From: a virus | Taxonomy: Duplodnaviria > Caudoviricetes | Reading direction: 5' to 3' (one strand) | Virus record (IMG/VR): IMGVR_UViG_3300006805_000023 | Length of the DNA stretch: 64,000 nt | Part shown: positions 320 through 62,332 of the stretch, one piece after another | Position numbering within the stretch: position 1 is the stretch's first letter | Layout: each line of letters opens with the position of its first letter | Translations under genes and position numbers: made by a program | Notes under the pieces: model-generated | The model's database searches: none | What the model saw: the letters and a program-made list of their open reading frames with translations, nothing else | What the model was told of the DNA's origin: nothing

Positions 320-347
320 AATCTACGTATTTGACCAGTATGGTCAA
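320..347 (-). promoter_or_regulatory. sigma70-like promoter TTGACC-N16-TAGATT, overlapping the inverted repeat TTGACC-agtat-GGTCAA (331-347)
   Basis: Read directly; points at the ORF starting at 297. Confidence 0.5.
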
Positions 348-819
348 GATCACCCCCACCCTCCTCGAATCCAGGCTCCTGATTGAAGCGATCACCGGAG
401 AAAAGCTGTTCGACAGTCTTGCCTTTTCTTACGAGACCAGCCGTGGCGGCGGTGCCTTTGCACAGGAACTTAACGGCTTGAGTCCAAACGACACCCGAAT
501 GATCCTCGATTTCATGAAAGAGGCTGGGTATGACGTGAGGCTCCCAGAAACGGGTGCTACTCCGCACGCGATCAAACGCGCTATCACAACCGCTGTGGCG
601 TCCTCTTCTTCGTCCTCGTCCAGCTCAGCGAGCCGGTCCGAAGGTTTCGGCACTCACGAAGAGGACGAGGACGAGGAGGATGAGACCGGCGTCATCAAGG
701 ATGACGAGTCCGGCATCAGTGTCAGGCGCGAGCGCCCGATGAAAGACGACCCCGCTGCGAGCGAGCTGGCCCTTGCCAGAACTCTTGGACATCGCAGCGA
801 GACCGGCGAAGAGGACTAA
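340..819 (+). CDS. acidic Ser-rich hypothetical protein, candidate internal head protein
   Basis: ORF 331..819 with ATG at 340; TACGTAT at 324-330; LLES and LIEA motifs; poly-Ser and D/E tracts. Confidence 0.6.
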   Translation: MVKITPTLLESRLLIEAITGEKLFDSLAFSYETSRGGGAFAQELNGLSPNDTRMILDFMKEAGYDVRLPETGATPHAIKRAITTAVASSSSSSSSSASRSEGFGTHEEDEDEEDETGVIKDDESGISVRRERPMKDDPAASELALARTLGHRSETGEED

Positions 820-1262
820 GCTCCCGGCTTCTTGTCAGCACGATCCTTGGCGGCAGCATCAGAGTACTTGCCCTTGTAGCGCTTCTCCAACTTGGCTTTG
901 TTGTGCGCCTGGACGCTCGCATGAGTGTAACCGAAGTGGTTCATGAGACCCTGCAGGAAGAAGCTGATGTCGCCCAGCTCCTCCAGGATCGTCTCACCGA
1001 TCGTCGCGCCAGTCTGCTCACACATCACGGTGTCCAGTGGCTGGTTGTAGATGGTGTGCTTCTTGATGGCGTCGAGGAGTTCACCAGAGGCTTCTCCGGC
1101 GATGCCGAAGACCATGCGGATGAGGTTCACCTTGTCAGCCGTGAGGGTAGCCAAGATGGCCTCAGGCGGCTTGATCAGGTCGCCCACGAACTTGGCGTAG
1201 GGGATTGCATTGACGTCCAGTTCGGGAACTGGGGTTGCGGGTGCGGATGTGTTTTGGTCCAT
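816..1262 (-). CDS. MazG-like NTP pyrophosphohydrolase
   Basis: GIAGEASGELLDAIKKH...LEELGDI..F...N.AKLEKRY pattern typical of phage MazG-like proteins. Confidence 0.8.
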   Translation of the reverse strand: MDQNTSAPATPVPELDVNAIPYAKFVGDLIKPPEAILATLTADKVNLIRMVFGIAGEASGELLDAIKKHTIYNQPLDTVMCEQTGATIGETILEELGDISFFLQGLMNHFGYTHASVQAHNKAKLEKRYKGKYSDAAAKDRADKKPGA

Positions 1263-1274
1263 CCGCTCCAGAAA

Positions 1275-1631
1275 TCACGCGATCTTGATCACCAGACGGG
1301 CTTCGATGATGGTGATCCTGACTCCCTCTGGCTCCTCGTTCGTGCGAGCAATTCCGGTCATCAGGAATACACCTTCGTCAGTGCTGATAACAAGGTTGTG
1401 CTCCGGGCCAAACTCGATCCGATCGAAAAAGCGATCGGTCTCGTGCGTGCGACGCACAAAATACTTCGCCCCGAGAGCACGCTGGGTGACAGCTGGTTCA
1501 TCCTGGCCGTCGATCGGGATCGTATGGGGTGCGAATTCGGCCTCAATGTTGCCCATAGCTGTGCAGGAACCATTGTCCGCGACGAAGCCAAGGCGTTGAT
1601 AAGGAAGGGCCGGTTTGGTTGTGTTCTCCAT
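1275..1631 (-). CDS. hypothetical protein
   Basis: ORF tightly packed between neighbours; ATG at 1631. Confidence 0.6.
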   Translation of the reverse strand: MENTTKPALPYQRLGFVADNGSCTAMGNIEAEFAPHTIPIDGQDEPAVTQRALGAKYFVRRTHETDRFFDRIEFGPEHNLVISTDEGVFLMTGIARTNEEPEGVRITIIEARLVIKIA

Positions 1632-1643
1632 AACCACTAGAAA

Positions 1644-1859
1644 TCAGACAACGGCTGTGAGGCGTGCAACTGAAAACACTAGCTTGCCTTTGCTGCCTCC
1701 AAGGAGAGCGATCGGGTCACCAGCGTTGCAGCCAATGGAGGCTATGTTGTCGTGGGAGGGAACAGCAGGACGGGCCACCAAGACTTTGCGTCGCGGACCT
1801 TTGCCATCGACTTTGACGAGGGTTCCAACGAGGGACTTGAGAGGGGAGGGAGCGGTCAT
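1644..1859 (-). CDS. small hypothetical protein (71 aa)
   Basis: ATG at 1859, 5 nt downstream of a -10 box. Confidence 0.55.
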   Translation of the reverse strand: MTAPSPLKSLVGTLVKVDGKGPRRKVLVARPAVPSHDNIASIGCNAGDPIALLGGSKGKLVFSVARLTAVV

Positions 1860-1864
1860 TCCAA

Positions 1865-1893
1865 AAGCTAACACAGGAGCTGGTGCTTGTCAA
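1865..1893 (-). promoter_or_regulatory. sigma70-like promoter TTGACA-N17-TAGCTT
   Basis: Consensus -35, 17-nt spacer, near-consensus -10. Confidence 0.7.
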
Positions 1894-1916: not shown

Positions 1917-1934
1917 GGCCAGCCCTGATAAGCT

Positions 1935-4316
1935 CTAAGCCTGGACGGTGGAGCCCTGAACGTCGCGAGCGATGAACTGCTCGACGTCGGCACCGCTTGG
2001 CAGGAGCGTGAAGTCGATCTCGAACGCCTCGGCGGACTTGGTCGGAATCACGTACACCTTGGCTTTGGCAAGGTTCTGATTGCGGACGTCCGGTGTGTTG
2101 GTGTCGGCGTCGCACTTGAGCTGGAACCACTCGATAGCTTCCTGCTGCTTGCGCGTCCGGAAGGCAGGTTCCACGATGTTGAGCCAGTCTTCCCACATCG
2201 TCGGGCCGTTCTGTTCGAAGTTCAGACGGCGGGAAGCCTGACGGACGACTTTGATGAGGTCGAACATCATGCGGCGAACGTTGATGCGGTCCAGCGAGGA
2301 CGCGAAGCGCTGCAGAGTGCGCTGGCCGTAAACCACGACGCCGGTGTCGTTGAACGACGCGATGGCGTTGAGGGCGTTGCCGTTGCCGGGGCCGTACATC
2401 GCGTTGCGATCCTCTTCGGTGGTCGCGTATTCGACAGCCAGGGCGTTTGGCACCTGACCGCGCTGCTCACCAGCTGGGGCGGTCCAGACCTTGCCAACCG
2501 AGTCGTTGTAGGCGAAGACGCCGGGAACGAAGGTGGTAGGCGGCATCCAGAGGTTCTTCTTGGAGTAAGGGTCGTAAACCTTGACCCACGGCCAGTAAAG
2601 GGCGGCCATGTTGGTCGCGAAGGCAGTGTGAAGGCCGGTGTACTCGCCGGTGCCGTTGTGCCAGTCGATGACCTGCTGGAGCGACAGGCCGAATGGCGTG
2701 TCATAGATGCCGAAGCAATCGTAGCGCTTCAGAAGGATCTGAGTGACCTCGTCCAGAACGGCTGCCAGAGTAACTCCAGGAACCGCCAAGATGTTGATGT
2801 CATAGAGATCGACGCGGCGGAAGTGCTGCAGACCAGTGTAGGTGCTGTTCGAGATAGTGCCGATGTACTCGGCGCTCGAAGGATTGGAGCCGTTGTAGCC
2901 CTTGGCGTTGTCGAACACCTGCTGGGACGCCTGAGCGTTGTCGGAGGTGCGGATGGAAGTCTGAGCCCCCATCAAGAAGCGCGGGTTGTTGGGGTGACGA
3001 ACGCGATCGTAGGAGTTTATGGGCTGCTCACCATTGGCACCCAAGTAAGTCGCTGTGACGTATTGGGAGATTGGGTTGGCCTCAGTGCCGACCACTGTGT
3101 CCCAGAAGTTCGGGCTGGCGGGATCGTAGCCGATCACGTTGTCGAACACTTCAACCTGAACACCACGGAACAGGATGCGGACGCGCTTGGTAAGGACTCC
3201 GACTGGGCTCCAGGCGCTGGAGGTGGTCGTCACCGCCGTGCAACGGTAAACAACGCCGAAGCGGTGGCCGGTCGTGGACTCCACGAAGCCGGTTTCGGTT
3301 CCAGGAGTGATCGTGCCAGCGTAGCCGGACACCACAATCGAGGTGCCGTTCGGGATGGCCGTAACTGAGTAGTTGCCGTCGTAAACGGAAGTGCCGGACA
3401 CCTCAATGGTGTCGGCGACCTTGAACTCGGAGCTGTTGGAGACGTTCAGGACCAGACTGCCGGAGCTGTTGGCAACACTGGTGATCGTAGCAGCCGCTGA
3501 GTCGAAGTTAACACCACGAGTCTCGCCAACGCGCACGCCATTGGTGGAGTTGAGAGCGAGCAGATCGAATTTGGTGTCCTTCGAAGGCGCAGCTGGCATG
3601 ACGCCCTGCAGGGGGATACCCTGGCTGGTAATGACGTTGCCCTGAGCATCGAGGTTGGCGAACTGGCCACCGTCTTCGATCAGGACTTCAATGCCCTGGG
3701 AAGATCCGAAGTTGGCGAAGTCGCCAGGATAACGAGCGCGGAACGACAGCAACGGGGTGACCTGACCGTGATGACGGCTCATGACGAACACCTCAGCCGG
3801 AGCTGCGGCGGAGTCATCAGAAGAGTCGATGCGGACGTCGCTGGTGTCCGTGTAGATGTCGAGCAGCTTACTTGCGAAGGTGATGACGAGGCCGGTGATG
3901 TCCGTGATCTGCAGGTTCTGGCTGGTGACCCGGCCAGTCTGGGTGATCTTGACGAAGTCGCCAACGTTGAGGCCATGACCGGTCTGAACGTTGATCGAGA
4001 AGATGTCGCCAGAGGCCTCAGCCTCGCCCATGGAGTCAAACAGAGCGGTTTCCTCGGTGTACACCTTGGCAACGCGGCAGTACCACACCTTCTGACCACG
4101 GCGCAGGAAGTTGATCGCGGCGTGCGGACCGAAGGAGTTGGCAGAGGGCTCGCCAAAGACTCTCAAGAACTGATCAGGAGAGGTGAGCAGGGTGGGCTTG
4201 TTGAGGGGGCCGCGTGCTGCCACGCCGACAAGGGCGAAGATGGTCGTGGCCTGACCGGCGATGTAATCGCTAAAGTCGCGTTCGTTGATGTAAACTCCGG
4301 GGCTAAGGGGCGTCAT
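1935..4316 (-). CDS. contractile tail sheath protein
   Basis: N-terminal LSPGVYINERDFS; C-terminal W.APAG..RG, VVYGQRTL, LDRINVRR and PTKSAEAFEIDF sheath motifs. Confidence 0.95.
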   Translation of the reverse strand: MTPLSPGVYINERDFSDYIAGQATTIFALVGVAARGPLNKPTLLTSPDQFLRVFGEPSANSFGPHAAINFLRRGQKVWYCRVAKVYTEETALFDSMGEAEASGDIFSINVQTGHGLNVGDFVKITQTGRVTSQNLQITDITGLVITFASKLLDIYTDTSDVRIDSSDDSAAAPAEVFVMSRHHGQVTPLLSFRARYPGDFANFGSSQGIEVLIEDGGQFANLDAQGNVITSQGIPLQGVMPAAPSKDTKFDLLALNSTNGVRVGETRGVNFDSAAATITSVANSSGSLVLNVSNSSEFKVADTIEVSGTSVYDGNYSVTAIPNGTSIVVSGYAGTITPGTETGFVESTTGHRFGVVYRCTAVTTTSSAWSPVGVLTKRVRILFRGVQVEVFDNVIGYDPASPNFWDTVVGTEANPISQYVTATYLGANGEQPINSYDRVRHPNNPRFLMGAQTSIRTSDNAQASQQVFDNAKGYNGSNPSSAEYIGTISNSTYTGLQHFRRVDLYDINILAVPGVTLAAVLDEVTQILLKRYDCFGIYDTPFGLSLQQVIDWHNGTGEYTGLHTAFATNMAALYWPWVKVYDPYSKKNLWMPPTTFVPGVFAYNDSVGKVWTAPAGEQRGQVPNALAVEYATTEEDRNAMYGPGNGNALNAIASFNDTGVVVYGQRTLQRFASSLDRINVRRMMFDLIKVVRQASRRLNFEQNGPTMWEDWLNIVEPAFRTRKQQEAIEWFQLKCDADTNTPDVRNQNLAKAKVYVIPTKSAEAFEIDFTLLPSGADVEQFIARDVQGSTVQA

Positions 4317-4350: not shown

Positions 4351-4926
4351 CTAGCAGCGGATGGACCAAATGAAACTCAGCGAAAGGTCTGACGTCTTGA
4401 CGATAGGGACCAGAGCCTTGCGGGCAAATAGGCCGCCACCAGCAGTCCACAGCCCCATCTCACGCAAGGTGTAACCGTTGCACTCGTCGGGGCCGAGCAG
4501 ACACTCGAACCGAGTGACGAACGGTACCGGCCAGTCCACTGAAGTGATCGCCTTGCGGCGGTTCGTGCCGTCATACTTGATCTCGTTCTCACCACCGGCG
4601 GTTGCTCCAGGTTGAGGGGACAGGGTAGTGTCAGTGAAACGTGGAGCCTCGTCGTAGGTGCCCCAGCTCACGCTGGTAATCACCATGTTGGAAGTGCCGA
4701 GGTCCTTGCCGCCGATCAGATAAGCCAGAGCCTGCCTGCCGTTGTTGACCACCATGTTGCGCGACAGATCAAGCCTGCCGTCTTCAAAACGGGGAAGCTG
4801 ATGGCGTGCAAAGTCAGGGTCGGCGAAGGCCTGATACGGATCAACTACCGGATTACCGGAGCGGTCCAGGACCAGCAACGAAACGTCGCCGCGCACCTCG
4901 ACAGTGTCTGTCAGGAGGCTGCTCAC
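4351..4926 (-). CDS. tail collar/fibre-attachment-type structural protein
   Basis: NMVVNNGRQALA...ECNGYTLREMGL....LFAR....IVKT pattern of tail-collar fibre-like proteins; directly upstream of the sheath gene. Confidence 0.6.
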   Translation of the reverse strand: MSSLLTDTVEVRGDVSLLVLDRSGNPVVDPYQAFADPDFARHQLPRFEDGRLDLSRNMVVNNGRQALAYLIGGKDLGTSNMVITSVSWGTYDEAPRFTDTTLSPQPGATAGGENEIKYDGTNRRKAITSVDWPVPFVTRFECLLGPDECNGYTLREMGLWTAGGGLFARKALVPIVKTSDLSLSFIWSIRC

Positions 4927-4928: not shown

Positions 4929-5174
4929 TTAGAGGATTCCGGATGGGAGGGACATCAGCTGCTGGGAGGAGAGCTTCTTGCGGAGCTTCTTCTTGTCAGC
5001 TGGGCTCAGGATCAGGTTCAGACGCTTGAAGTCGTTGATGCGAAGCCCCTTGATGTCGTGGTCACTGGGAACGCAGCTGGTGGCAATGGTTTCAACCAGA
5101 CGATCAACACCCTCGTGAAAGGCGCGACGGTTGCTGATCCTCTTGGTGGTGGCTTTAGGGCGTGGGCGGCTCAT
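4929..5174 (-). CDS. small basic hypothetical protein
   Basis: First ORF of the sheath operon; TAAGTAT 7 nt upstream. Confidence 0.6.
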   Translation of the reverse strand: MSRPRPKATTKRISNRRAFHEGVDRLVETIATSCVPSDHDIKGLRINDFKRLNLILSPADKKKLRKKLSSQQLMSLPSGIL

Positions 5175-5223
5175 TAGAACTATACTTAGACCCCGACTTC
5201 GAACCGGCCTAGATATTGCCTAC
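5175..5223. promoter_or_regulatory. back-to-back pair of TANNTAT putative late promoters (5182-5188 minus, 5210-5216 plus)
   Basis: Each motif lies exactly 7 nt from the ATG of a divergent gene. Confidence 0.65.
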
Positions 5224-6523: not shown

Positions 6524-6827
6524 ACAGAATCAGGTTGAGGAGTGGCAGGGGGCGTGGCTTTCCGTCGTTGCCGGTTAGCGTGACAATATCGGGAGTGACC
6601 TCGGTGATCGTAAGCAGCTCGTTGAACAAAAACACGCGATCTCCCACCTTGTCGGGGAGGTGTAGGTGCCTGATCTTCAGGAGCATGCACATGGTCTTGA
6701 AGGCTAGCACATAGTTGCCGCGCTGAAGATCTGCAGAGGCGGTGCGCTTGGCGAGCTTCCAGGCTTGGTGGACGTCCCTGCATGGCTTCCCAGCTAGGAA
6801 CGCCACAGCGTCTAGGTTTTTGATCAT
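6477..6827 (-). CDS. hypothetical protein
   Basis: Start overlaps the stop of the upstream gene (ATGA coupling). Confidence 0.55.
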   Translation of the reverse strand: MIKNLDAVAFLAGKPCRDVHQAWKLAKRTASADLQRGNYVLAFKTMCMLLKIRHLHLPDKVGDRVFLFNELLTITEVTPDIVTLTGNDGKPRPLPLLNLILCERRQPSFPSNQAKA

Positions 6828-7867
6828 GAGTCGGAAACCAGACGGGCCACACGATCTCTGCCTCCTCCAAGTTTGATGGGGCGGTCTTCCAAGAGGCCGT
6901 CCTCAATGAAGCTGAGCACGTTCTCGACGTCCGATTCAACGATCGCTGGGCTGATCCCTGGAAGCTTCATCCCCACCTCGACCAGAGACTGCGAGTCCTT
7001 GACCAGAGCGTTGATGACGCCACCGGCGGCGGCAGCACGCTTCATCTGCTGGACCGTGGGGAACCTGACCGACATTCCGGCGAACACGTGCATGAGGTGT
7101 CGAGTGTTTTTGACCCCGATGATGTTGATGAGGTCTGGGATGAAAGAGAACTTGGCACCCAGACGCATAACGTCCCCCTCACTGAGCGGCGAAGCAAAAT
7201 GGTCGAGCAGCACGTTACGGACTGCTCCGGTGGTCCAGTCAACCAGAAACTTGGCCTCGTCGAGCCCGATCTCGTATCCGAGACGCAGAGTGTTGAGCAG
7301 GTTACGTCGGTAGTCAACCGAGCGCCCTTCTGAGTCCTTACCACGGGTCTCACCCCTGCGTTCGAGCACCGACACCAGAATCACCCTGATGGCTTCTTGG
7401 ATGTTGGGTTCAGTCCAGCGAGTCTCGATGGCTGAGAGGCATTTCGCGATCGCCTGGCTGTCATCGAGGCGATGGTGCTCAGAAGCGACTGAGCCAAGTA
7501 GGTCGATTGGAGTATCACCAAGATTTTGGAACCTACCACGATAGTTCGACTCGCGAGCCACTAAGCTGATGCAACCATGCTTGGTCGAGGTAGCCGCGTA
7601 GGTGTAGAACTTGCCATCACCGGGACGCCATTTGAGAGCCCAACGGTCGATCTGACTGTACAGATGGGACAGCAGGTCCTCAAACGGGACCGACTGACTG
7701 TAACGGCTTTTCCTGATGATGCTCGACATCAGGTTGGTGAGGTGATCGCAGATCCGGTGAAAGGTCGCAAAGTCGCGGTTGCGCTTAAACAGAAGGCACA
7801 GCTCCTCAACGGTCTCGTTCTCGAAGATCATTTTCTTGCTGGCTGTTGTCGGAACTCTCGGTATCAT
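6824..7867 (-). CDS. sigma-factor region 2-like protein with C-terminal Mor-like segment; candidate late transcription factor
   Basis: FEDLL...KWRPGDGKFYTYA resembles sigma70 region 2.2-2.3; PDLINIIGVKNTRHLMHVFAGMSVRFP resembles the Mor family motif. Confidence 0.55.
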   Translation of the reverse strand: MIPRVPTTASKKMIFENETVEELCLLFKRNRDFATFHRICDHLTNLMSSIIRKSRYSQSVPFEDLLSHLYSQIDRWALKWRPGDGKFYTYAATSTKHGCISLVARESNYRGRFQNLGDTPIDLLGSVASEHHRLDDSQAIAKCLSAIETRWTEPNIQEAIRVILVSVLERRGETRGKDSEGRSVDYRRNLLNTLRLGYEIGLDEAKFLVDWTTGAVRNVLLDHFASPLSEGDVMRLGAKFSFIPDLINIIGVKNTRHLMHVFAGMSVRFPTVQQMKRAAAAGGVINALVKDSQSLVEVGMKLPGISPAIVESDVENVLSFIEDGLLEDRPIKLGGGRDRVARLVSDS

Positions 7868-10830: not shown

Positions 10831-10837
10831 TTAACTT
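10809..10837 (+). promoter_or_regulatory. sigma70-like promoter TTGACT-N17-TAACTT
   Basis: 8 nt upstream of ATG 10846. Confidence 0.6.
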
Positions 10838-16321: not shown

Positions 16322-16328
16322 GTGGGGA

Positions 16329-16589
16329 CTAGGCAGAAAGCCAGGAAAGGGCAAACTGAGTTAAAGTTACGTTAGCCCCTTCAATAACGACAAGACCGCA
16401 CTCTTTCAGCCACTCCACAGCGGGGGTGACTTGAGTGCTGCCATTATCTCGAATTGACTGGAGGAGCCGCCAGTCATCACCCGTGATCTCGACCAGATTG
16501 ACGTTGTCAGTGGCGGTCGTGATCATCCCAGTCTCGATCAGACGAGGCTCTTTAGTGCGTTGAGCAAGTTCTTCGCGAAGAGACAGCAT
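16329..16589 (-). CDS. hypothetical protein
   Basis: 86-aa ORF packed between baseplate and nrdA genes. Confidence 0.55.
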   Translation of the reverse strand: MLSLREELAQRTKEPRLIETGMITTATDNVNLVEITGDDWRLLQSIRDNGSTQVTPAVEWLKECGLVVIEGANVTLTQFALSWLSA

Positions 16590-21086: not shown

Positions 21087-21101
21087 CGTGCTGATACCTA
21101 G

Positions 21102-22097: not shown

Positions 22098-22121
22098 GTC
22101 AGAACTAGAAACCAAGTCTGA

Positions 22122-22343: not shown

Positions 22344-22759
22344 ATCTCATACTTAGTGTGGCCGTCGAACGTGGAGCCGATACTGGTTCTACGTGTGCGC
22401 GCACGCGCTCGCTGGCCGCGCTGGCTCGCGTGCGCGATTCCCTCTTAAACGTGATTTCTGTTATAGCTTTAGCTTTGAAACGGAGTGAACAAGAAGATGA
22501 TGGTAGAACAGAAGATCACCTCTCTCCCCCTCCACGGCCCACGGAGTGGGGCGGAAACCCAACTTGTTGGGTTGTTAAGAAGGGACATAACCTTAAAAAG
22601 TAAACGCGAGCGCGAGCGGCCCGCTGGCTGGCTCCGGCATGTGACTCGCCTAGCGGCGAGGACGGCCCCCACTCCGTGGGGCCGGGTGGCGGTTGGATGG
22701 AGACGATGCAATGTGGCAGCAGGCTGCACTGTTTGGTTTTCTTGGCTGGTCCCCACACC
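22344..22759. other. largest non-coding gap, with inverted repeats; candidate replication origin or structured RNA
   Basis: Divergence point between the portal operon and DNA polymerase; 14-bp inverted repeat, several hairpins, AT-rich patches. Confidence 0.4.
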
Positions 22760-27020: not shown

Positions 27021-27049
27021 TTGACAGGAGCGCGCTCCTGTTGTATGTT
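27021..27049 (+). promoter_or_regulatory. sigma70-like promoter TTGACA-N17-TATGTT containing an 18-bp perfect palindrome
   Basis: ACAGGAGCGCGCTCCTGT at 27024-27041. Confidence 0.8.
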
Positions 27050-32593: not shown

Positions 32594-32636
32594 GCTTTAT
32601 AAGTAGTTATCGGTTCTCTCTAGGAGAACACACCCA

Positions 32637-36745: not shown

Positions 36746-36760
36746 TTTCTTGGCTCGACT

Positions 36761-38679: not shown

Positions 38680-38744
38680 CCGTGCGATACTTAGGGTTGG
38701 GAGGTGGGGTTGACGACGGCCAAAATCCGTGGAAGGTTACCTGC

Positions 38745-40382: not shown

Positions 40383-41621
40383 ATGGGAGACGAAAATGAT
40401 GGCGCGGTGACAGTTATCCCCCCGAAGGGGCCGCAGCAAAAGCGTGAAATGGTCGTCAAAAAGAAGACGGCACCGGACCTTGACCTCGATAGCCTGCTCA
40501 CCACAGCATGCAAGGGCAAGACCGGCGAGGACGAATCGTTCAGTGCTGTTACGATGATCGACCTGATGGCTACGCCTGAGGTCTTCGGTACCGGCATCGA
40601 ACAGCTGGACCGGATGCTCGGTGGCGGTTTTCATTGGGGTCGCATGGCGGAGTTGTTCGGACCCAACAAGTCCGGCAAGACAGAGCTGGCCCGGTTTATC
40701 TCGGCGTCGATTCTGGAAGCCGACCCCGATGTCGAGGTCTGGTATTTCGATCAGGAGTTTGCCCTCAATCCGGCGATCCTCCACAAGTATCCGTCATTGA
40801 GTCTGCGCAACGCCGCTGGTAAGCTGCGTTTCCGCCCGATCTCAGTGTCGAGTCTTGAGGAGTACTTCAAGCTGATGTACAAGGCCCTGCGCATGCTCGG
40901 CACCATCAACGAGAAGGCCATCAAAGAAGGCACTCCAACCAAGAAGATCGTGTTCGTCCTCGACTCGGTGCCAGCCCTCAAGGCCAACGCATCGGTTGAG
41001 AACGAGGAATTCGAGAAAAGCTCCCTGTTGCCGGAGCCCCGCATCTGGTCGGACCAGACCTCCAAACTGCGGCAGTACCTGGCACACGTCGGAGCCTTCG
41101 CGATCATGGTCAACCAGATCCGTGACAAGCCAGGCACCCCGTCTTACGTCGATCCGGAGAGCCCAGGCGGTCAGGCCCTCAAATTCTACGCCGACTACCG
41201 CCTTTACCTGCGGACGTCGAGCAAGTTCAGTTTCTCCAAGGGACGCTCAGTCCCGACCCGGAAGCGCAGTTCGGGCTTCTTCTCCAAAATCACGGTTCGC
41301 AAGAACAAGACCGGTCTTCCCGACCGCGAAATGGAGATGGTCATCACGTTCACGGACGCTCTCGGCAAGAAGTCGGGGATCTCGCCGGAGTGGACCCTGT
41401 TCTACTCGCTGCTGGATGCCAAGATCATCAAGTCCGCCGGTGGCAAGTTCAGGATCGCTGGTCTTGAGGAGGGCTTCACCCGCCTTGACTGGGTCAACCT
41501 CTGCGACGACCTGCTCAAGGTGGATGGCTCGGCGCTCCGGGTCGCCCTCGACACTTGGGTCGAGCGTCAGCTGTCCAACGACTCTGGAAGCGCCGGTGGC
41601 GGCGAGGAAGAAGACGAGTAA
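40383..41621 (+). CDS. RecA/UvsX-like recombinase
   Basis: TG...LD..LGGG...G...ELFGPNKSGKT, VLDSV, VNQIR, GG.ALKFYA..R. Confidence 0.92.
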   Translation: MGDENDGAVTVIPPKGPQQKREMVVKKKTAPDLDLDSLLTTACKGKTGEDESFSAVTMIDLMATPEVFGTGIEQLDRMLGGGFHWGRMAELFGPNKSGKTELARFISASILEADPDVEVWYFDQEFALNPAILHKYPSLSLRNAAGKLRFRPISVSSLEEYFKLMYKALRMLGTINEKAIKEGTPTKKIVFVLDSVPALKANASVENEEFEKSSLLPEPRIWSDQTSKLRQYLAHVGAFAIMVNQIRDKPGTPSYVDPESPGGQALKFYADYRLYLRTSSKFSFSKGRSVPTRKRSSGFFSKITVRKNKTGLPDREMEMVITFTDALGKKSGISPEWTLFYSLLDAKIIKSAGGKFRIAGLEEGFTRLDWVNLCDDLLKVDGSALRVALDTWVERQLSNDSGSAGGGEEEDE

Positions 41622-41629
41622 CTGTTACC

Positions 41630-48003: not shown

Positions 48004-48054
48004 CGTTATAGGTAATGGGTGCTGGATCTCCCCGTGGTGTTTTTATTGGAAGCG

Positions 48055-49542: not shown

Positions 49543-49558
49543 TTTCTTGGTGGTTCCT

Positions 49559-50464: not shown

Positions 50465-50762
50465 TCCGGATCTGACCAAACGCTGGTTGCAGCTTGCTTG
50501 GCGCGACGGAGCATTCCTGAGGCTTGAGCTTCAACAGCAGCTTCTCCTGATGCTGGAGATCGACGGCCCGTCACACAACGTGACGGTGCGCAATCAAGCC
50601 CTGCAGCTCGCGTGGGACAATGGCGTGTTCCTGAAACGTGAGTTCGTTCTTCAACGAGGAGTCCTTGAATACCTCGTAAGGGCAGAACTTGACAAACGTC
50701 AGGAACCTGCTATGTTGGACGCGCCTCAAGAGAACACTAAGCACAGGAAACCAAGTAAATAG
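50382..50762 (+). CDS. hypothetical protein with internal duplication, start uncertain
   Basis: LQLAWRDGAFL and LQLAWDNGVFL repeats; the nearest upstream ATG overlaps GroES-2. Confidence 0.35.
   Translation: MPKKNQSPSSSSQVRKGTTAPPARSSSDPDLTKRWLQLAWRDGAFLRLELQQQLLLMLEIDGPSHNVTVRNQALQLAWDNGVFLKREFVLQRGVLEYLVRAELDKRQEPAMLDAPQENTKHRKPSK
50689..50716 (+). promoter_or_regulatory. sigma70-like promoter TTGACA-N16-TATGTT with extended TG
   Basis: Upstream of the AAA ATPase gene. Confidence 0.6.
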
Positions 50763-50779
50763 CTATTTAGCCACCCCGA

Positions 50780-55057: not shown

Positions 55058-55079
55058 AAGGGATTTCTGATATCTAGCC

Positions 55080-56504: not shown

Positions 56505-57932
56505 TTAGCTGCCGAAGCTGGTCGGCATGTTGCTGATGCGGACCGTCGAGTAGTACTTGTTGTTGATCATCGCCTTGCCGTAGCTGGAGGCGAAACCGCG
56601 ACGGCTCATGAAGTCGTCCAGCTCGACCGTTGGGGTCGTGAAGAGCAACAGCCAAGGAGCGAAGACGTAGCCCGTGCGGACGAATTCGTTGCCCTTGTAG
56701 CCGACGAGGGTTTCGGTGACGGGGTAACGGGTGTCGCCGTAGAGGTCGAGACGACCCAGCTTGCCCATTTCGTGCGCACCTTCGATCTCGGCGTCGTCGT
56801 TCTTCGCTTCGAAACCAGCGAGGGTCTCGACGATGTTGGAAGCCTGCTGGCCGAGCAGAGCCCAGTTCGCACGAGCACGGTTGGTGCCACGGGCGATGAA
56901 GCTGGAAGCACCGACGAGGGCGTCGATGAAGGACAGCTTGTGTTCCTGGAAGCTGATGTAGCTGCCGGTCGGGATGTTCGCGGACCAGTTGAAGGTACCA
57001 GCGCCAGCCTGCTTGCGGACGTCTTCGATCAGCTGACGGTCCACTTCCCAGTGGAGGTGATTGGTCACCGCTGGAGCCAGCATCGACTCAGCGTTCACCT
57101 TGTGGAGAGCGTCGAGAGCCATTGCGGCCTCACGGGTCCAGCGAGCGCGCAGCTTGCGGGTTTCCGCACGGATCGGGCGGCTCTGGAGCTCAAGGTCCAC
57201 CTGCTGGGACTCAGGGTTGAGTTCCTGGTGGTAGTTGTAGCTCACTTCGACCGCCGTGCCATCAACTGGCAGGCCGACGTCAGAGATCGACACTTCACCG
57301 GTCGCGTAATCGACGGAGCCTTTGGCAACCGAAGCCACGTTGTACATGATGCCGTCGCCGCCATCACGATAGACCGCCGTGTCGGCGACCAGCTGCAGGG
57401 TGCCGGGGATCAGAGGGGTGTAGGCCAGGCTGCCGGAGGTGGCAGAGCTGGACACCGCACCGAGCATTTCGGAGGTGACGCGGTCGCCGGAGTCCGTGTA
57501 ACGGTCAGCGTGGCCGGTCAGCGCATCCCAGATCTTGGAGCCGCGAGGGGTGTTGCCCTTGTCCTTGCCGGTCACGAAGTTCGCGAAGAAGATCAGACCG
57601 GTTGGGCCGTCGAGTGGCTGCACCGTGAAGAGCTTCTGGGCGATCAGGTTTTCCGACATGATCGAGATCATCGGCATGGCGTACTTGTCCCAAGTGCCAA
57701 TGTTGGTGCTCGTGGTGTTTTCCACCATGCCGTTGTTGATGGCATTGCGGTAGTTTTCGAGCATGTTGGCAGCGAAAGCCTTGGTGTAGTCGTCAGGAAG
57801 GCCATCGACCATTTCCTTCCAGCCCTTGGCTTCCATGATGTTGCCTTTGGAACCGACGCCCATGGGGGTTTCGGCGAGTTTGATGCCTCGAACGAGAGTC
57901 TCGACGAGTTTGGAGTTGTCAACGTGTGTCAT
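56505..57932 (-). CDS. major capsid protein (T4 gp23-like)
   Basis: VQPLDGPTGLIF, I.AETRKLRARWT.EAA..L.A.H..NAE..L, GY.FAPW, GFASSYG. Confidence 0.95.
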   Translation of the reverse strand: MTHVDNSKLVETLVRGIKLAETPMGVGSKGNIMEAKGWKEMVDGLPDDYTKAFAANMLENYRNAINNGMVENTTSTNIGTWDKYAMPMISIMSENLIAQKLFTVQPLDGPTGLIFFANFVTGKDKGNTPRGSKIWDALTGHADRYTDSGDRVTSEMLGAVSSSATSGSLAYTPLIPGTLQLVADTAVYRDGGDGIMYNVASVAKGSVDYATGEVSISDVGLPVDGTAVEVSYNYHQELNPESQQVDLELQSRPIRAETRKLRARWTREAAMALDALHKVNAESMLAPAVTNHLHWEVDRQLIEDVRKQAGAGTFNWSANIPTGSYISFQEHKLSFIDALVGASSFIARGTNRARANWALLGQQASNIVETLAGFEAKNDDAEIEGAHEMGKLGRLDLYGDTRYPVTETLVGYKGNEFVRTGYVFAPWLLLFTTPTVELDDFMSRRGFASSYGKAMINNKYYSTVRISNMPTSFGS

Positions 57933-57977: not shown

Positions 57978-59888
57978 TTACTTCTTCTTGGGCTGAGCGC
58001 GACGAAGGGAACCGAGGAGACTGACCGACTCATTCAAGTCCTCAGCCGGAGGGGCAGGAGGAGCAGGAGGAGCCGGAGGGGTACCACCGGGTTTCGGGGC
58101 GCTCTCATTGAGCTTGGAAGCGGCGGCTTTGACAATGCGGTCCGAAGCTTCTTCAAGCTTGGTGTAGACCTTGATGCCCTCAAGTTCAGCCTTGTTGGCT
58201 TCGTAGAGTTCGGGCTTGATCTGCTTGAACAGCTGACGGCCCATCTCGGTCATGTCCTTGTTGTACTTCGTCGCGAGCTTCCGAGCGGCCTGTTCGTACA
58301 GGTCACCACCTTCACCGCGTTTGCCACGGTTACTTTCCTTGAGAGTCTTGTGTTCCTGGATCAGCGTTTCCGTGGCGGCGTTGAGGCGCTTGGTGCGGTT
58401 TTCGTTGATCTGCAGACGGCGCTGGAGCTTGGCGATGCCACGCTTGGCCTCGGGGAGGGTCGCAGGCTCGGGGATTTCTTCGAACGGCTCCTCACCGCCA
58501 GCTGCGTCATAATCGACGGGATCGGTGGCGACGCCGTCGGCGTTGGCTTCGAGTTCGTCGGCGAGTGCCAGAGCGGCTTCAGCGTCCACGCCACCTTCAG
58601 CGGAGGTGCGGAGCATGTCGGCGGCCTTGATCAGGAGGTCCGCAGTGGCGGAGCCTTCTTCGTTGCCTTCGTCTTCACCGCCAGGGGCAGGAGGAGCAGG
58701 AGGAGCGCCAGCGCCGGGGGCGGGAGGAGCAGGAGGGGCCGGAGGGGCGTCTTCTTCGTTCTCGTCGAGGCGGGTCGCGAAAGCGGTGAGGCGAGCGTTG
58801 GCGTCTTCGATGATGAGTTTGACATCCGGGTCTTCACGCATCAGGGCAGCAGCCTTGACGCGCATGGTGTCGATGGACTCAAGAAGCGCAGCCTTGTCGG
58901 AGGTCCTGAGTTTGGTGAAGTCCGTCTGGGCAAGACGGATGGCGTTGGTTTTAAGCTCGCGGGCTTCGATGAGTTTGCTCATTTCGGTGGTATTTTGCGT
59001 TGGTGTTGGGGCGGAGATTGGGGCGGGAACTGGTGCAGGAGGCGTCGGAGCGGTCTCGACGATCTTCTCTTTCGGTTTGAGAGCTGCGGCAGCTTCAGTG
59101 ATGCATCCCAGAGCGCTGGAGACTGAATCGAAGGTGCCGAAGTTGAGGGCGTCGTTGCCAGCGAACTTGAGCTTCCCGTCCTGACCTTCGATCAGAGAGA
59201 GTTTGCCGAACGCGCTGGAGACGACCGATACCAGAGTGCGGTTGATCGCGGATTCCTGGATGTCTTCTTCTGGACTTGGAAGGGTTGGAGCACGACCGGC
59301 GGCAACTTCCTGAATGTTCCTTGGGATGGCGCGCTGCACGGATGGCGTGAAGACCACGTCCCACGTTTCGAGCATGAAGTCCTCGTTGACGTCCAGGAAA
59401 CCTTCGGCCTGAGTGGTGGTGCCTGAGCCACGGCTGGAGACACCCCAGCGGACACGGGCTTCGATGAGGGACCGCAAGAGGTTACCCTGCGGCGTCGGCA
59501 GGACCTCAAGGGTGCCAAGGATGTCGCCTTCGCGCAGTTCACCCTTCGATTCGGCAATTTCAGACTCGGTGGCAAGCCAGACCTTGGTTACGACGTGGGA
59601 GGCCTCAGCCATCCTGGTCATACCGTCTTCTGGGTGCTCGATCATCCCAAGGACACCGCGCTCGGCGAGCATCTTGGAGAAGTCACTGCCGGGGGCAAGG
59701 TTCTTCTCCCAGAGCTTCTTGCCGTAGCGGCGACCGTTGAGGTTGGTCTCCACATGGTTTTGAAACACGCCAGTCGCCTGGAAAGTGGTGCGACCGGCTG
59801 CTTCGTGCAGCTGAATCGGGCCGTATTGACGGAAGCCGCTCTTTGAGAGGGACTCCTGTACTGTCTGCCATTCACTGAGTTTAATCAT
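57978..59888 (-). CDS. prohead protease (gp21-like) fused to scaffold/core region
   Basis: GVFQ....N.NGRRY, LG..EHP, ASH, TP.G..L..L....V.WGVSSRGSG, TWDVVFTPS; acidic, Pro-rich C-terminal half; TAGGTAT 7 nt upstream. Confidence 0.88.
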   Translation of the reverse strand: MIKLSEWQTVQESLSKSGFRQYGPIQLHEAAGRTTFQATGVFQNHVETNLNGRRYGKKLWEKNLAPGSDFSKMLAERGVLGMIEHPEDGMTRMAEASHVVTKVWLATESEIAESKGELREGDILGTLEVLPTPQGNLLRSLIEARVRWGVSSRGSGTTTQAEGFLDVNEDFMLETWDVVFTPSVQRAIPRNIQEVAAGRAPTLPSPEEDIQESAINRTLVSVVSSAFGKLSLIEGQDGKLKFAGNDALNFGTFDSVSSALGCITEAAAALKPKEKIVETAPTPPAPVPAPISAPTPTQNTTEMSKLIEARELKTNAIRLAQTDFTKLRTSDKAALLESIDTMRVKAAALMREDPDVKLIIEDANARLTAFATRLDENEEDAPPAPPAPPAPGAGAPPAPPAPGGEDEGNEEGSATADLLIKAADMLRTSAEGGVDAEAALALADELEANADGVATDPVDYDAAGGEEPFEEIPEPATLPEAKRGIAKLQRRLQINENRTKRLNAATETLIQEHKTLKESNRGKRGEGGDLYEQAARKLATKYNKDMTEMGRQLFKQIKPELYEANKAELEGIKVYTKLEEASDRIVKAAASKLNESAPKPGGTPPAPPAPPAPPAEDLNESVSLLGSLRRAQPKKK

Positions 59889-59950
59889 TGCTCGGATACC
59901 TATGACGCCCTGACCGGAGACTCGCTCTGAGTGCAACCTGATGCGCTCCG

Positions 59951-60364
59951 TTAAGCCTCGTCTGTACTGACCGGCAATGGGCGCATCGGAGACGGCGCAA
60001 CGCGTCCGGCTAACACGGACTTAGGCATGACAACTGGAGGGGCGTCTGGGAAGCCCGGTTCCAACTTGACGTAGGCCTGGCTGAAGTTCCAGATGTGTTG
60101 AAGCGACTTCTCGGCACGCTCTTTAGTAACACCGAACCTAGCCAGCTTCTGCAGCACCTGAGGGTCGTCCCCCATGATCGAGACCGTCTGACCACCATTC
60201 CACATCACCCTGAACATGGGCGACATTGGACGGCGTGTCAGTAGCACGTAACCAGGGTTTGGAACCTTCGGCACCCCGAACGGCACCTTGTAGTACTCCC
60301 GCTCTGGCAAGTCCAGAGTGTGACGCATCAGGGCGTCCTGCAGGAGATAATTCTTGAATGGCAT
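59951..60364 (-). CDS. hypothetical protein
   Basis: 137-aa ORF in the head operon. Confidence 0.6.
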   Translation of the reverse strand: MPFKNYLLQDALMRHTLDLPEREYYKVPFGVPKVPNPGYVLLTRRPMSPMFRVMWNGGQTVSIMGDDPQVLQKLARFGVTKERAEKSLQHIWNFSQAYVKLEPGFPDAPPVVMPKSVLAGRVAPSPMRPLPVSTDEA

Positions 60365-60373
60365 AGCCGTAGG

Positions 60374-60997
60374 CTAGTTGAACATTGACGCCAGCAAGTC
60401 CTCAAGAGCTTGCTTGGTCGAGGACTCCGTGACCTGGACTCCCCCAAACAGCCACGTGCCAGCAGCTGCCTTGAAATCGTCCATCATAGCCCCGCTGTAC
60501 ACCGACAGCAGCGGAGTCAGGCTGAACGGCCTCTTGCCAGACACGAAGTCGGCGGTTGACGGGTGCTCAGCCAAGGGGACGCCGTGGGCGTAGCCGCCGG
60601 ACTTCACGAGAGCGTTGGTAATGTGGATGGCGACCAGACGCGAGACGGCGTCGGAAAACTTCTGATAGACAACTCGGAGCGGAACACCAGAGTTGATGTG
60701 GTGCTCGATTTGTTCGATCGTGCGAGCCCGTGGAGTAACGAGCTTGTGCTGCCAAGTCAGACGGCTGCGCGGAGTCATCCGGTCCCAATAGGCCTCAAGG
60801 AATGACTGCGTGACCAAATAATGGGAGTCCTCGCCCTTGTCGAGGCACTCCTGAGCGATGTACACGACGTTCTCGACCTTGTCGTAGTAGCTGAACCTGC
60901 CGTTGATTCCGGGCGAGATCTTGTGCGGCGATGAGAACAGGTCGCTGGCTTTGATGTGGGAACGCAGCATCCCCATATAAGTGTTGAGGTCAGACAT
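60374..60997 (-). CDS. hypothetical protein
   Basis: ATG 60997 overlaps the stop of the upstream gene. Confidence 0.6.
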   Translation of the reverse strand: MSDLNTYMGMLRSHIKASDLFSSPHKISPGINGRFSYYDKVENVVYIAQECLDKGEDSHYLVTQSFLEAYWDRMTPRSRLTWQHKLVTPRARTIEQIEHHINSGVPLRVVYQKFSDAVSRLVAIHITNALVKSGGYAHGVPLAEHPSTADFVSGKRPFSLTPLLSVYSGAMMDDFKAAAGTWLFGGVQVTESSTKQALEDLLASMFN

Positions 60998-61817
60998 AAC
61001 GGGGAGGAGTTGGAGGGGACGGTGGCCTTGGTCCGGTCGAGGTGCTGGGTTGAGTTCCAGGCGGTGCTGGCTTGCCGTCTGGCTGGTCGGACCCGATCTC
61101 CTTGGTCGGGACATCTTCGGTCCCCTGATCTGGATGATCGGGGTCAATGACCGTGGTCCTAGTGGCGTCAGACTTCACGACCTGTCGCCTTCTAGTGTTG
61201 CCGTTCTGGACTGTGATGACCGGCTCCCCCGGCTTCGGCGGTGGGTTGGTTTCGAACAGGGCCGACATCAGCCTTGGCCCAGCCTGAACGGAGTCCCTCA
61301 AGCCCAGCTTCGACGCGAGGCCCTGAACCTCACTAGGAGGCTGCTCTTCTTCCTTGCCTTTGCTTGGGGCTGCATCTTTCGAGGGGCTGGCTGTGTCTTC
61401 ATTGTCGTCGCCTTCTGGTGGAGCATCTGGGACTTCTTCTGAGTCGGGAATTTGGACGCGCAGGCGCTGCAGACCCTCGAGGGTCTGTCGCATGTACTTG
61501 GAAAGCTCCGTGTCAGCGCTTCCCAGGATGTCCTGAATCTTGGCGACCAGTCCTGGGATCTGCTGCGAGGGGTCAGTCTGGGGGTCCGGCTTGAACTGAT
61601 GCATGGCACCCACCAGAGCTTCGATAAGCAGCTTCTCTTCGCTCTCTGCCGGGAGAGCACTGCTTGACAGGGCGCGTTCGTTCAGGAACTGGGTGGCGGT
61701 AAGCCACACGTCGCTGTACGACTTGTAAGCGTCATTTTCAAGCAGGATGGCGTGCAGCCTGCTCGTGCCGCTGCTTGCCCCCTTCGTTTCACTCAACAGG
61801 CACCTAAGGAGTCTCAT
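60990..61817 (-). CDS. hypothetical protein, candidate internal head protein
   Basis: TAGTTAT 5 nt upstream; LLSET, LLEN, LNER and LIEA motifs. Confidence 0.65.
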   Translation of the reverse strand: MRLLRCLLSETKGASSGTSRLHAILLENDAYKSYSDVWLTATQFLNERALSSSALPAESEEKLLIEALVGAMHQFKPDPQTDPSQQIPGLVAKIQDILGSADTELSKYMRQTLEGLQRLRVQIPDSEEVPDAPPEGDDNEDTASPSKDAAPSKGKEEEQPPSEVQGLASKLGLRDSVQAGPRLMSALFETNPPPKPGEPVITVQNGNTRRRQVVKSDATRTTVIDPDHPDQGTEDVPTKEIGSDQPDGKPAPPGTQPSTSTGPRPPSPPTPPRYV

Positions 61818-61834
61818 TGGTGATAACTAGGGGA

Positions 61835-62293
61835 TCACACTGGTGGGTGGCTTGGATAGTCGAACGGCGGGGTTTCGTCGTTGATCGTGCCGACCTTCGG
61901 ATCGGTCGGATGTAGGAACACACTGAATGCAACGGAGGCCGCCCCGCGAACCATCAAAGAGGTGACGCCATCGTTACCGGCCACGCCTGCGGCCAGGAAC
62001 TCGATGTCGGTGAACCAGTCGTCGAAGGAGACCGTGACGGACTGCTGCGGAACGACGGTGTTGATCTGGGAACTGCCGACCTTGACGCCGTCCTTCATGG
62101 AACGCAGAGTGAGTTCCACCGGCTTACGCCCGACGTTGGTCAGGTGAATCTCTGCCTTGATGCGTGGCACAGGCGTTGCTAGGGTAACACCGTTGCGGGT
62201 CAGCCCCTGCAACACGCTGTTGCCGTCTTGGGTCAGTCGAAGGAACACGCCTTCACCGGTCAAAGTCTGTAGCTGAGGAAGTGGGCTGGTCAT
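61835..62293 (-). CDS. putative beta-rich structural protein
   Basis: TAGCTAT 5 nt upstream; alternating hydrophobic beta-strand pattern. Confidence 0.55.
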   Translation of the reverse strand: MTSPLPQLQTLTGEGVFLRLTQDGNSVLQGLTRNGVTLATPVPRIKAEIHLTNVGRKPVELTLRSMKDGVKVGSSQINTVVPQQSVTVSFDDWFTDIEFLAAGVAGNDGVTSLMVRGAASVAFSVFLHPTDPKVGTINDETPPFDYPSHPPV

Positions 62294-62332
62294 CCCGAAT
62301 AGCTACGACGAGGTTGGTTTTGCGGGGGGGAC

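What the first reader, a model, noticed from the sequence alone, without database searches (positions are those of the whole stretch)
324..62305. Phage-specific TANNTAT element marks starts of structural (late) operons
Seen: an exact TANNTAT heptamer, often preceded by C, sits just upstream of the first gene of structural units. Sites (strand, gap to ATG in nt): 324(+,9), 4339(-,22; sheath), 5182(-,7), 5210(+,7), 21094(-,7), 22349(-,5), 32599(-,5), 32604(+,26), 38687(-,7; spike), 48008(-,4; tape measure), 55070(-,12), 59896(-,7; protease-capsid), 61823(-,5), 62299(-,5). No shared -35 was evident by eye at the sites inspected, and genes with TTGACA promoters lack the motif. It does not fit the sigma70 TAnnnT spacing. 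Known: T4 late promoters are also a -10-only element read by a phage sigma. Inference: this is a late promoter, and gaps of 4-9 nt imply leaderless or near-leaderless late mRNAs.
Basis: partly seen in the sequence, partly recalled or inferred. Interest (0 to 1): 0.85.

Follow-up and report, generated by a model that had tools for sequence, protein, structure and literature searches.

The report
Phage late-type promoter motif TANNTAT
A seven-base signal, TANNTAT, sits a few bases before the start codons of the particle-building genes of an uncultured 218-kb T4-like phage and its relatives; it is most likely a phage-specific promoter without a -35 box that starts mRNAs at or next to the ATG, a new version of a known phage strategy.

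Summary
All 14 sites exist with the stated gaps. A 15th site (50760, +) heads an AAA+ gene. Of 18 exact TANNTAT copies on both strands, 15 lie 4-26 nt before the ATG of a real gene. Among 1023 patterns of the same shape it ranks first (p 2.5e-13). Inside genes it is avoided on both strands (1 copy against about 13 expected). No -35 or other upstream element is conserved. The five fixed bases persist at orthologous genes in relatives (MCP identity 52-87%, GC 47-60%), while the NN, the flanks and the gap change. In those relatives, canonical TTGACA-N17-TAnnnT promoters sit 5-6 nt before ATGs, the same geometry. I therefore read TANNTAT as a -10-only promoter giving leaderless or near-leaderless mRNAs. 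It probably depends on a phage sigma-like protein; one is encoded in the window (6824-7831, sigma region-2 fold, Z 10.2). "Late" timing, the transcription start sites and the reader protein are inferred; no RNA data exist. No gp55-family hit was found among the window's proteins, and the motif differs from TATAAATA. Other windows of this genome carry the same motif in earlier notes of this scan, and the scan has reported similar leaderless late promoters in other phages. This is a new variant of a known kind.

The parts
324..330 (+). TACGTAT, 9 nt before ATG 340 (gene 340-819, acidic and poly-Ser, unknown function)
   Evidence: orthologous site TACTTAT with gap 9 in L008
4339..4345 (-). TACCTAT, 22 nt before ATG 4316 of the tail sheath gene (1935-4316)
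   Evidence: ortholog TATCTAT with gap 23 in L008
5182..5188 (-). TAAGTAT, 7 nt before ATG 5174 (81-aa gene heading the unit 4929-5174, 4351-4926, sheath)
   Evidence: conserved in L008 with gap 6
5210..5216 (+). TAGATAT, 7 nt before ATG 5224 (gene 5224-5946); divergent partner of the 5182 site, 21 nt away
   Evidence: conserved in L008 with gap 5
21094..21100 (-). TAGGTAT, 7 nt before ATG 21086 (201-aa gene followed by portal 18377-20455 and baseplate wedge genes)
22349..22355 (-). TAAGTAT, 5 nt before ATG 22343 (73-aa gene, first of the minus-strand unit)
22101..22107 (-). One-mismatch variant TAGTTCT, 3 nt before ATG 22097 (gene 21102-22097)
32599..32605 (-). TACTTAT, 5 nt before ATG 32593 (gene 31706-32593)
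32604..32610 (+). TAGTTAT, 26 nt before ATG 32637 (gene 32637-33038); it overlaps the 32599 site in the divergent orientation, and a short inverted repeat lies in the leader
38687..38693 (-). TAAGTAT, 7 nt before ATG 38679 of the baseplate hub/spike gene (37522-38679)
41619..41625 (+). One-mismatch variant TAACTGT, 4 nt before ATG 41630 (1429-aa protein); its TAA is the stop codon of the UvsX-like gene
48008..48014 (-). TACCTAT, 4 nt before ATG 48003 (695-aa protein, no family hit)
50760..50766 (+).
   Evidence: also present in L001
55070..55076 (-). TAGATAT, 12 nt before ATG 55057 (gene 54101-55057)
59896..59902 (-). TAGGTAT, 7 nt before ATG 59888 of the prohead protease gene, which is followed by the major capsid gene 56505-57932
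   Evidence: protease orthologs carry TAACTAT-5-ATG (L002) and TAGTTAT-6-ATG (L004)
61823..61829 (-). TAGTTAT, 5 nt before ATG 61817 (gene 60990-61817)
62299..62305 (-). TAGCTAT, 5 nt before ATG 62293 (gene 61835-62293)
6824..7831 (-). Gene for a 335-aa sigma-like protein (sigma region-2 fold at the N-terminus); candidate reader of the motif (inferred)
   Evidence: Pfam Sigma70_r2, E 5.6e-4, below the cut-off. AF2 model residues 6-101 superpose on sigmaE region 2 bound to -10 DNA: Z 10.2, rmsd 2.5 A, 92 of 94 residues, and all 50 top chains are sigma factors. The family is confined to this phage clade.

Best explanation
TANNTAT is the core, and probably the whole, of a phage-specific promoter class with no -35 element. 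It occupies the place of a -10 element, so RNA polymerase starts about 5-8 nt downstream. That is at the A of the ATG or 1-2 nt before it at most sites, giving leaderless mRNAs. At five sites it would leave a leader of about 3-20 nt without a Shine-Dalgarno sequence. The class drives the virion modules (sheath, baseplate hub, portal/wedge unit, protease-capsid) and is therefore probably late.

The host core polymerase is probably redirected to it by a phage-encoded, highly diverged sigma-like protein. The candidates are the 335-aa protein encoded at 6824-7831 and a 195-aa ECF-like protein behind the primase. The 195-aa protein was seen here only in the close relative L010; an earlier unchecked note places a 194-aa counterpart about 19.7 kb before the window.

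Shown: the placement, the statistics, the absence of upstream conservation, the avoidance on both strands, the conservation in relatives, and the sigma-like folds. Inferred: promoter function, start sites, late timing, and which protein reads the motif.
For: Placement:
- 15 of 18 copies precede gene starts.
- The pattern ranks first of 1023, p 2.5e-13; permuted controls give 0-2 hits each.

DNA-level signal:
- It is depleted inside genes on the sense strand (1 against 7.5) and on the antisense strand (0 against 5.3).
- Divergent pairs occur at 5182/5210 and 32599/32604, each motif facing its own ATG.

Architecture:
- No conserved position lies upstream except S at -1, and the gap has its mode at 4-7 nt.
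- In the window all 15 sites are followed by ATG, never GTG or TTG, as leaderless translation requires by established knowledge. In relatives a few sites precede GTG (L006 1811, L010 13693).
- The gaps hold no Shine-Dalgarno sequence.

Conservation:
- The motif is kept before protease, sheath and other orthologs in L002, L004, L006 and L008-L010, while NN, flanks and gap change.

Same geometry as true promoters:
- In the relatives, TTGACA-N17-TATAAT, TATTGT or TATGTT lies 5-6 nt before the ATG.

Candidate readers:
- Sigma region-2 fold in the 335-aa protein.
- ECF-like two-domain fold in the 195-aa protein of L010.
- No RNA polymerase gene was detected in the window.

Precedents:
- T4 late promoters are a lone TATA box one helical turn from the start site, with no -35 element (PMC2988020, PMC7892883).
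- Thermus phage Lalka27a late promoters carry a special -10 (TAGGGT) and no -35 (bioRxiv 10.64898/2026.04.20.719267).
- A -10 motif next to ORFs drives leaderless genes in Deinococcus (PMC12340547).
Against: - No transcript data exist. No RNA run holds this phage.
- Position 6 is A where sigma70-type -10 elements need T(-7). The recognition chemistry is therefore unknown.
- The 4-7 nt gap is also the classic Shine-Dalgarno-to-AUG distance.
- Several sites lie between co-directional genes with no detectable terminator.
- Five sites have gaps of 9-26 nt, so they are not leaderless.
- One non-structural AAA+ ATPase gene carries the motif, and many downstream genes have no known function. 'Late/structural' is therefore only partly tested.
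- The sigma-like proteins are not linked to the motif by any direct evidence, and their sequence signals are weak (Pfam below cut-off; no PDB sequence hit).
- Relatives L003, L011, L012 and L013 do not use the motif.
Confidence: 0.7

Rival explanations
1. TANNTAT is read on the mRNA as a translation-initiation signal that replaces the Shine-Dalgarno sequence. It would be bound by the ribosome or by a phage protein 4-7 nt before the AUG.
For: The gap of 4-7 nt equals the usual SD-to-AUG spacing. The phage has almost no SD sequences. Some sites lie between co-directional genes, where an internal ribosome entry signal would be useful.
Against: - The motif is avoided on the antisense strand of genes as strongly as on the sense strand (0 against 5.3 expected, P 0.002). 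An mRNA signal does not predict this.
- The two central bases are free, which is unlike a base-pairing motif.
- By established knowledge of the conserved 3' end of 16S rRNA, nothing there is complementary to UAnnUAU.
- Most genes of the phage, including the capsid gene, start without the motif.
- Canonical -10 hexamers occupy the same position before ATGs in relatives.
Confidence: 0.08
2. The motif is a -10-only promoter read by the host's own housekeeping or an alternative sigma factor, with no phage factor. Deinococcus-Thermus works this way: a lone -10 motif next to an ORF is sufficient.
For: A lone TANNNT next to ORFs acts as a promoter for leaderless genes in Deinococcus (PMC12340547). 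The phage clade already uses host-type TTGACA/TAnnnT promoters placed for leaderless starts.
Against: - None of the 15 sites contains TAnnnT in the aligned register, because position 6 is always A. Only 1 of 15 fits in the shifted register.
- The strict TAT and the distinct set of genes argue for a separate specificity.
- The clade encodes two sigma-like proteins.
- The host is unknown, so its alternative sigma factors cannot be checked.
Confidence: 0.12
3. The motif is the promoter of a phage-encoded RNA polymerase, single-subunit or of the non-canonical multisubunit type found in jumbo phages.
For: This is a roughly 218-kb jumbo phage. Only 64 kb of it, plus about 30 kb of a close relative, were inspected. 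Several large proteins have no family hit (for example 41630-45919).
Against: No polymerase-like PHROG or Pfam hit was found in the window. Notes on other windows of the genome mention no polymerase gene. Host-type early promoters and sigma-like genes point to use of the host core enzyme.
Confidence: 0.05
4. The motif is an operator for a DNA-binding regulator (repressor or activator), and the real promoter lies elsewhere.
For: A short, strictly conserved DNA word at gene starts could also be a regulator site.
Against: Many intergenic gaps holding the motif are only 15-45 nt long and hold no other promoter-like sequence. The motif is asymmetric and oriented with its gene. Its distance to the ATG is fixed like that of a -10 element.
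Confidence: 0.05

Closest known systems
Bacteriophage T4 late promoters (TATAAATA read by gp55 with gp33 and the gp45 clamp)
   Same: - A single AT-rich box at the -10 position and no -35 conservation.
- Either polarity along the genome.
- It heads virion genes of a phage with T4-type capsid, portal, protease and sheath proteins (PMC2988020, PMC7892883).
- T1, A2, A6 and T7 of TATAAAT coincide with TANNTAT.
   Different: - The consensus differs: 7 bp with two free positions, and T rather than A at position 5.
- There is no AT-rich melting segment downstream.
- The mRNAs would be leaderless, whereas T4 late mRNAs carry SD leaders.
- No gp55 or gp33 family hit was found in the window; the sigma-like proteins found resemble ECF or group 3 sigma factors by fold.
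- Clamp dependence is unknown.
Late promoters of Thermus phages (Lalka27a TAGGGT class; phiYS40 leaderless middle/late transcripts)
   Same: A phage-specific -10 variant without -35, a high density of late promoters in front of collinear genes, divergent late promoter pairs, and starts 6 nt downstream of the -10 element (bioRxiv 10.64898/2026.04.20.719267). That phiYS40 middle and late transcripts are leaderless is from my own knowledge of Sevostyanova et al. 2007; it is cited in PMC12340547 but I did not read it here.
   Different: Lalka's element still fits TAnnnT and has a conserved C at -25. TANNTAT does not fit TAnnnT and has no upstream partner. The phage lineage is different, and there are no transcript data here.
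-10 motif adjacent to ORFs in Deinococcus-Thermus (host leaderless genes)
   Same: A -10 element a few bp before the start codon acts as a sufficient promoter and gives leaderless mRNA (PMC12340547).
   Different: That motif is TANNNT read by RpoD. Here the motif has A at the position of T(-7) and marks a phage gene class.

Membership tests
T4-type late transcription system | Promoter is a lone -10-position box with no conserved -35 | tested here: met
   No position from -45 to -1 exceeds 0.25 bit over 39 aligned sites. The position relative to the ATG equals that of the -10 hexamers of leaderless early promoters in relatives. Start sites themselves were not mapped.
T4-type late transcription system | Consensus TATAAATA (or the close variants seen in T4-like phages) | tested here: not met
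   All 15 sites read TANNTAT. Position 5 is T, not A, and positions 3-4 are free.
T4-type late transcription system | gp55-family sigma and gp33 co-activator encoded by the phage | tested here: inconclusive
   No PHROG or Pfam hit to gp55 or gp33 among about 60 window proteins. Two diverged sigma-like proteins exist. They gave no sequence hit to any PDB chain, and gp55 is not among their top 50 structural matches. About 150 kb of the genome was not available.
T4-type late transcription system | Activation by the sliding clamp loaded on replicating DNA | not testable with these tools
   This needs biochemistry or genetics.
Sigma70-type -10 hexamer (TAnnnT) leaderless promoters | T at -12, A at -11 and T at -7 within a hexamer | tested here: not met
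   Position 6 of the motif is A at all 15 sites. The shifted register TATnnT fits 1 of 15.
Sigma70-type -10 hexamer (TAnnnT) leaderless promoters | -10 element ends 5-7 nt before the first base of the start codon | tested here: met
   Over 39 sites the gap is 4-7 nt at 26 of them. Canonical promoters in relatives have gaps of 5-6 nt.
Shine-Dalgarno-type ribosome binding site | Complementarity to the 3' end of 16S rRNA, and selection on the sense strand only | tested here: not met
   The central NN is free. Antisense depletion equals sense depletion. The lack of complementarity to the conserved anti-SD region rests on established knowledge; the host rRNA is unknown.
Sigma70 family (for the 335-aa protein at 6824-7831) | Region 2 fold that binds core polymerase and the -10 element | tested here: met
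   Z 10.2, rmsd 2.5 A, 92 of 94 residues against sigmaE region 2 in complex with -10 DNA. All 50 best chains are sigma factors. Pfam Sigma70_r2 scores 20.1 bits, below the cut-off of 24.

The most novel reading that the evidence does not exclude
This T4-like jumbo-phage clade runs an almost wholly SD-less, largely leaderless three-tier transcription programme:
- host-type TTGACA-N17-TAnnnT promoters;
- a GTGATTTCT class that includes the sigma-like gene itself;
- the TANNTAT class for virion genes.

In this reading two diverged phage sigma-like proteins replace the gp55/gp33 system. If the genome really carries 2-aminoadenine, as an earlier unchecked note on a PurZ-like gene suggests, the late factor would have evolved to read a -10 element whose 'A's are modified bases.
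Probability: 0.2. Interest if true: 0.75.

Novelty: new variant of a known kind. Interest (0 to 1): 0.5.

Why it matters
- It gives a simple, testable rule for finding the virion-gene transcription units of an uncultured jumbo-phage clade and for correcting their start codons. Several ORF-track starts are wrong, for example the protease, which starts at 59888 and not 59936, and the gene that starts at 5224 and not 5131.
- It shows a T4-like phage with no gp55-family hit in the 64 kb examined and a different late-promoter word, so late-promoter recognition in this lineage has diverged or been replaced.
- It offers two small sigma-like proteins with a defined candidate DNA target for biochemical work on -10 recognition where A, not T, sits at -7.
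- It adds a case of leaderless expression of very abundant structural proteins.

Tried and rejected
- RNA evidence: two run searches found only DNA runs from wastewater and one doubtful 'RNA' run. That run's contigs touch the stretch in one 210-nt piece, so no start sites could be read.
- Close relatives: DNA and capsid-protein searches of the phage collection found only distant relatives, at most 32% identity. IMG/VR gave nothing.
- The whole genome is not held, and the records behind the loci could not be searched.
- Host inference: distant relatives are binned with Thermoplasmatales, Ignavibacteriaceae and Planctomycetota MAGs. This is inconsistent, so no host is named.
- Profile searches of both sigma-like families against PDB sequences gave nothing useful. 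Pfam and PHROGs gave nothing for the 195-aa protein.
- Terminator scan: only one convincing intergenic terminator (about 33067-33093); the rest is noise inside genes. Unit boundaries could therefore not be set this way.
- A strict 'structural versus enzyme' contingency test was dropped, because too many motif-headed genes have no known function.
- The literature search for the word TAnnTAT found no phage promoter.

Full report
WHAT THE WINDOW IS. The window is part of a contig of about 218 kb from a wastewater metagenome, with 58% GC. It encodes T4-type virion proteins:
- gp23-like major capsid protein, 56505-57932
- gp21-like prohead protease, 57978-59888
- portal, 18377-20455
- tail sheath, 1935-4316
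- baseplate wedge and hub

These are mixed with replication and nucleotide-metabolism genes: family-A DNA polymerase, NAD-dependent ligase, UvsX-like recombinase, helicase, NrdA/NrdB, thymidylate kinase and MazG. No isolated phage is close; the best capsid match is 32% identity, to Bacillus phage SP-15.

THE OBSERVATION. All 14 reported heptamers exist, with the stated strands and gaps.
- The window holds 18 exact copies of TANNTAT on both strands.
- 15 of them lie 4-26 nt upstream of the ATG of a gene with coding-type composition.
- Two copies are only the reverse reading of true sites.
- One copy lies inside a gene (5367).

The total count is barely above chance: 18 against 10.2 +/- 3.6. The placement is far from chance.
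- 13 of 18 copies are followed within 13 nt by an ATG that opens at least 60 codons. The nine same-composition permutations of the pattern give 0-2 of 8-29 each.
- Among all 1023 patterns of the form XX..XXX, TA..TAT ranks first with p 2.5e-13; the next has p 3.6e-5.
- One-mismatch variants head two further genes, at 41619 and 22101.

A DNA SIGNAL, NOT AN mRNA SIGNAL. I corrected a few gene starts and compared gene interiors (59 kb) with 1000 shuffles of synonymous codons within each gene.
- Observed: 1 sense and 0 antisense copies.
- Expected: 7.5 and 5.3.
- P 0.001 and 0.002; no shuffle had so few in total.

Selection against the word on the antisense strand is what one expects of a short, self-sufficient promoter that would fire wherever it occurs. 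A ribosome-binding signal does not predict it. The two divergent pairs (5182/5210 and 32599/32604), each motif facing its own ATG, point the same way.

ARCHITECTURE. I aligned 39 sites from the window and its relatives.
- There is no information upstream of the motif (below 0.25 bit at every position from -45 to -1), apart from a preference for C or G at -1.
- The two central positions are free.
- The gap to the start codon peaks at 4-7 nt, at 26 of the 39 sites.
- The gaps are too short for, and do not contain, a Shine-Dalgarno sequence.
- All 15 window sites precede ATG.

CONSERVATION. Capsid homologs led to related contigs.
- The motif again sits 4-7 nt before start codons in L002 (capsid 87% identical, 52% GC), in L008-L010 (a 138-kb contig of NCBI assembly GCA_040384165.1), in L004 (52%, 47% GC) and in L006 (54%, 60% GC).
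- The enrichment over the permuted controls is clear: 5/11 against 5/121, 4/6 against 1/42, 9/35 against 13/397, and 4/7 against 1/60.
- At orthologous genes the five fixed bases stay while the rest drifts. Protease: TAGGTAT-7, TAACTAT-5, TAGTTAT-6. Sheath: TACCTAT-22 against TATCTAT-23. The divergent pair at 5182/5210 keeps both motifs, with gaps of 7/7 against 6/5.
- More distant relatives (L003, L011-L013) do not show the usage, so the signal is specific to a sub-clade.

THE SAME GEOMETRY AS TRUE PROMOTERS. In the relatives, textbook promoters such as TTGACA-N17-TATAAT, TATTGT or TATGTT lie 5-6 nt before ATGs. Weaker examples occur in the window. The clade therefore already makes leaderless mRNAs from host-type promoters, and TANNTAT occupies the place of their -10 hexamer. 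It does not fit TAnnnT: position 6 is A at all 15 sites. A different specificity determinant is therefore needed.

WHO MIGHT READ IT.
- The 335-aa product of 6824-7831(-) has a sub-threshold Pfam Sigma70_r2 match (E 5.6e-4). Its family is confined to this phage clade.
- An AlphaFold model of it has N-terminal residues 6-101 that superpose on sigmaE region 2 bound to -10 DNA: Z 10.2, rmsd 2.5 A, 92 of 94 residues. All 50 best chains are sigma factors.
This is a 195-aa protein coupled to the primase gene (L010:3679-4266). It has no HMM hit. Its model (pLDDT 83) resembles two-domain ECF-type sigma factors (Z about 8, and all top rows are sigma factors). On its own this is weak for a helical protein.
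- No gp55, gp33 or RNA polymerase family was detected in the window.
- Which factor reads TANNTAT is inference.

GENE CLASS.
- The motif heads the sheath unit, the portal/wedge unit, the hub gene and the protease-capsid unit.
- No replication or nucleotide-metabolism gene is directly preceded by it.
- An AAA+ ATPase gene and several genes of unknown function are.
- 'Late' is inferred from this bias alone.
- No public RNA run holds the phage.

COMPARISON WITH WHAT IS KNOWN.
- T4 late promoters are a lone 8-bp TATA box one helical turn from the start site, without a -35 element and with either polarity. They are read by gp55 (PMC2988020, PMC7892883).
- Thermus phage Lalka27a late promoters have a special -10 (TAGGGT) and no -35.
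- In Deinococcus, a -10 motif next to ORFs drives leaderless genes.
- TANNTAT works like these but is not a member of the T4 system by the tests possible here.
- The word TAnnTAT is not described as a phage promoter in the searchable literature.
- Earlier notes of this scan record the same motif in other windows of this genome, and follow-up reports describe analogous leaderless late promoters in other phage families.

VERDICT. The claims about late timing and about the reader protein are less certain. This is a new variant of a known kind, of moderate interest.

Noticed in passing
window 1270-1278(-), 1639-1647(-), 22451-22459(+), 33102-33110(+), 36742-36750(+), 49539-49547(+), 63946-63952(-), 55062-55068(+), 317-323(-); also L002 4262, L006 14566(-), L008 8750 and 16296, L010 8910, L014 about 7410 and 9985: A second conserved motif, (G)TGATTTCT, lies 7-19 nt (37 nt at one site) before the starts of a different set of genes: MazG, exonuclease, a GroES-like gene, the intein-bearing terminase-like gene and the DNA polymerase region. 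In L014 it precedes the sigma-like gene itself. Its TGA is often the stop codon of the upstream gene. ATTTCT and GATTTCT are the most enriched upstream words after TAAGTA. It may be a middle-class promoter or an intercistronic signal. It remains unexplained.
   Followed up: partly
window-wide, e.g. upstream of 57932(-), 27079(+), 49988(+), 53420(+): Genes without either motif have C/A-rich leaders with no G (CACCCA, CCCACC) and no Shine-Dalgarno sequence. This includes the major capsid gene and its orthologs in all relatives. It suggests SD-independent translation in the unknown host.
   Followed up: partly
window 27021-27049(+), 62333-62360(+), 1865-1893(-), 10809-10837(+): Host-type TTGACA-N16/17-TAnnnT promoters occur here. 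Two are placed 5-8 nt before an ATG (1893-, 10809+). In relatives most of them are leaderless.
   Followed up: partly
window 13040-16354(-) and 33130-36411(+): The NrdA-like protein matches its family in two blocks (residues 19-395 and 755-1081), with an insert of about 360 aa between them. The 1093-aa terminase-like protein carries a LAGLIDADG/intein-splicing signal. Both probably contain inteins.
   Followed up: no
window 33067-33093(+): This is the only clear intrinsic terminator in an intergenic region: a GC stem followed by TTTTT, downstream of 32637-33038. It is followed directly by a GTGATTTCT motif and the terminase-like gene.
   Followed up: no
window 5131/5224, 59936/59888, 41555/41630, 22115/22097, 62333: The longest-ORF starts are probably wrong at these genes. 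The motif-adjacent ATGs are conserved in relatives, and the TTG at 62333 is the -35 box of a promoter.
   Followed up: partly
   Followed up: no
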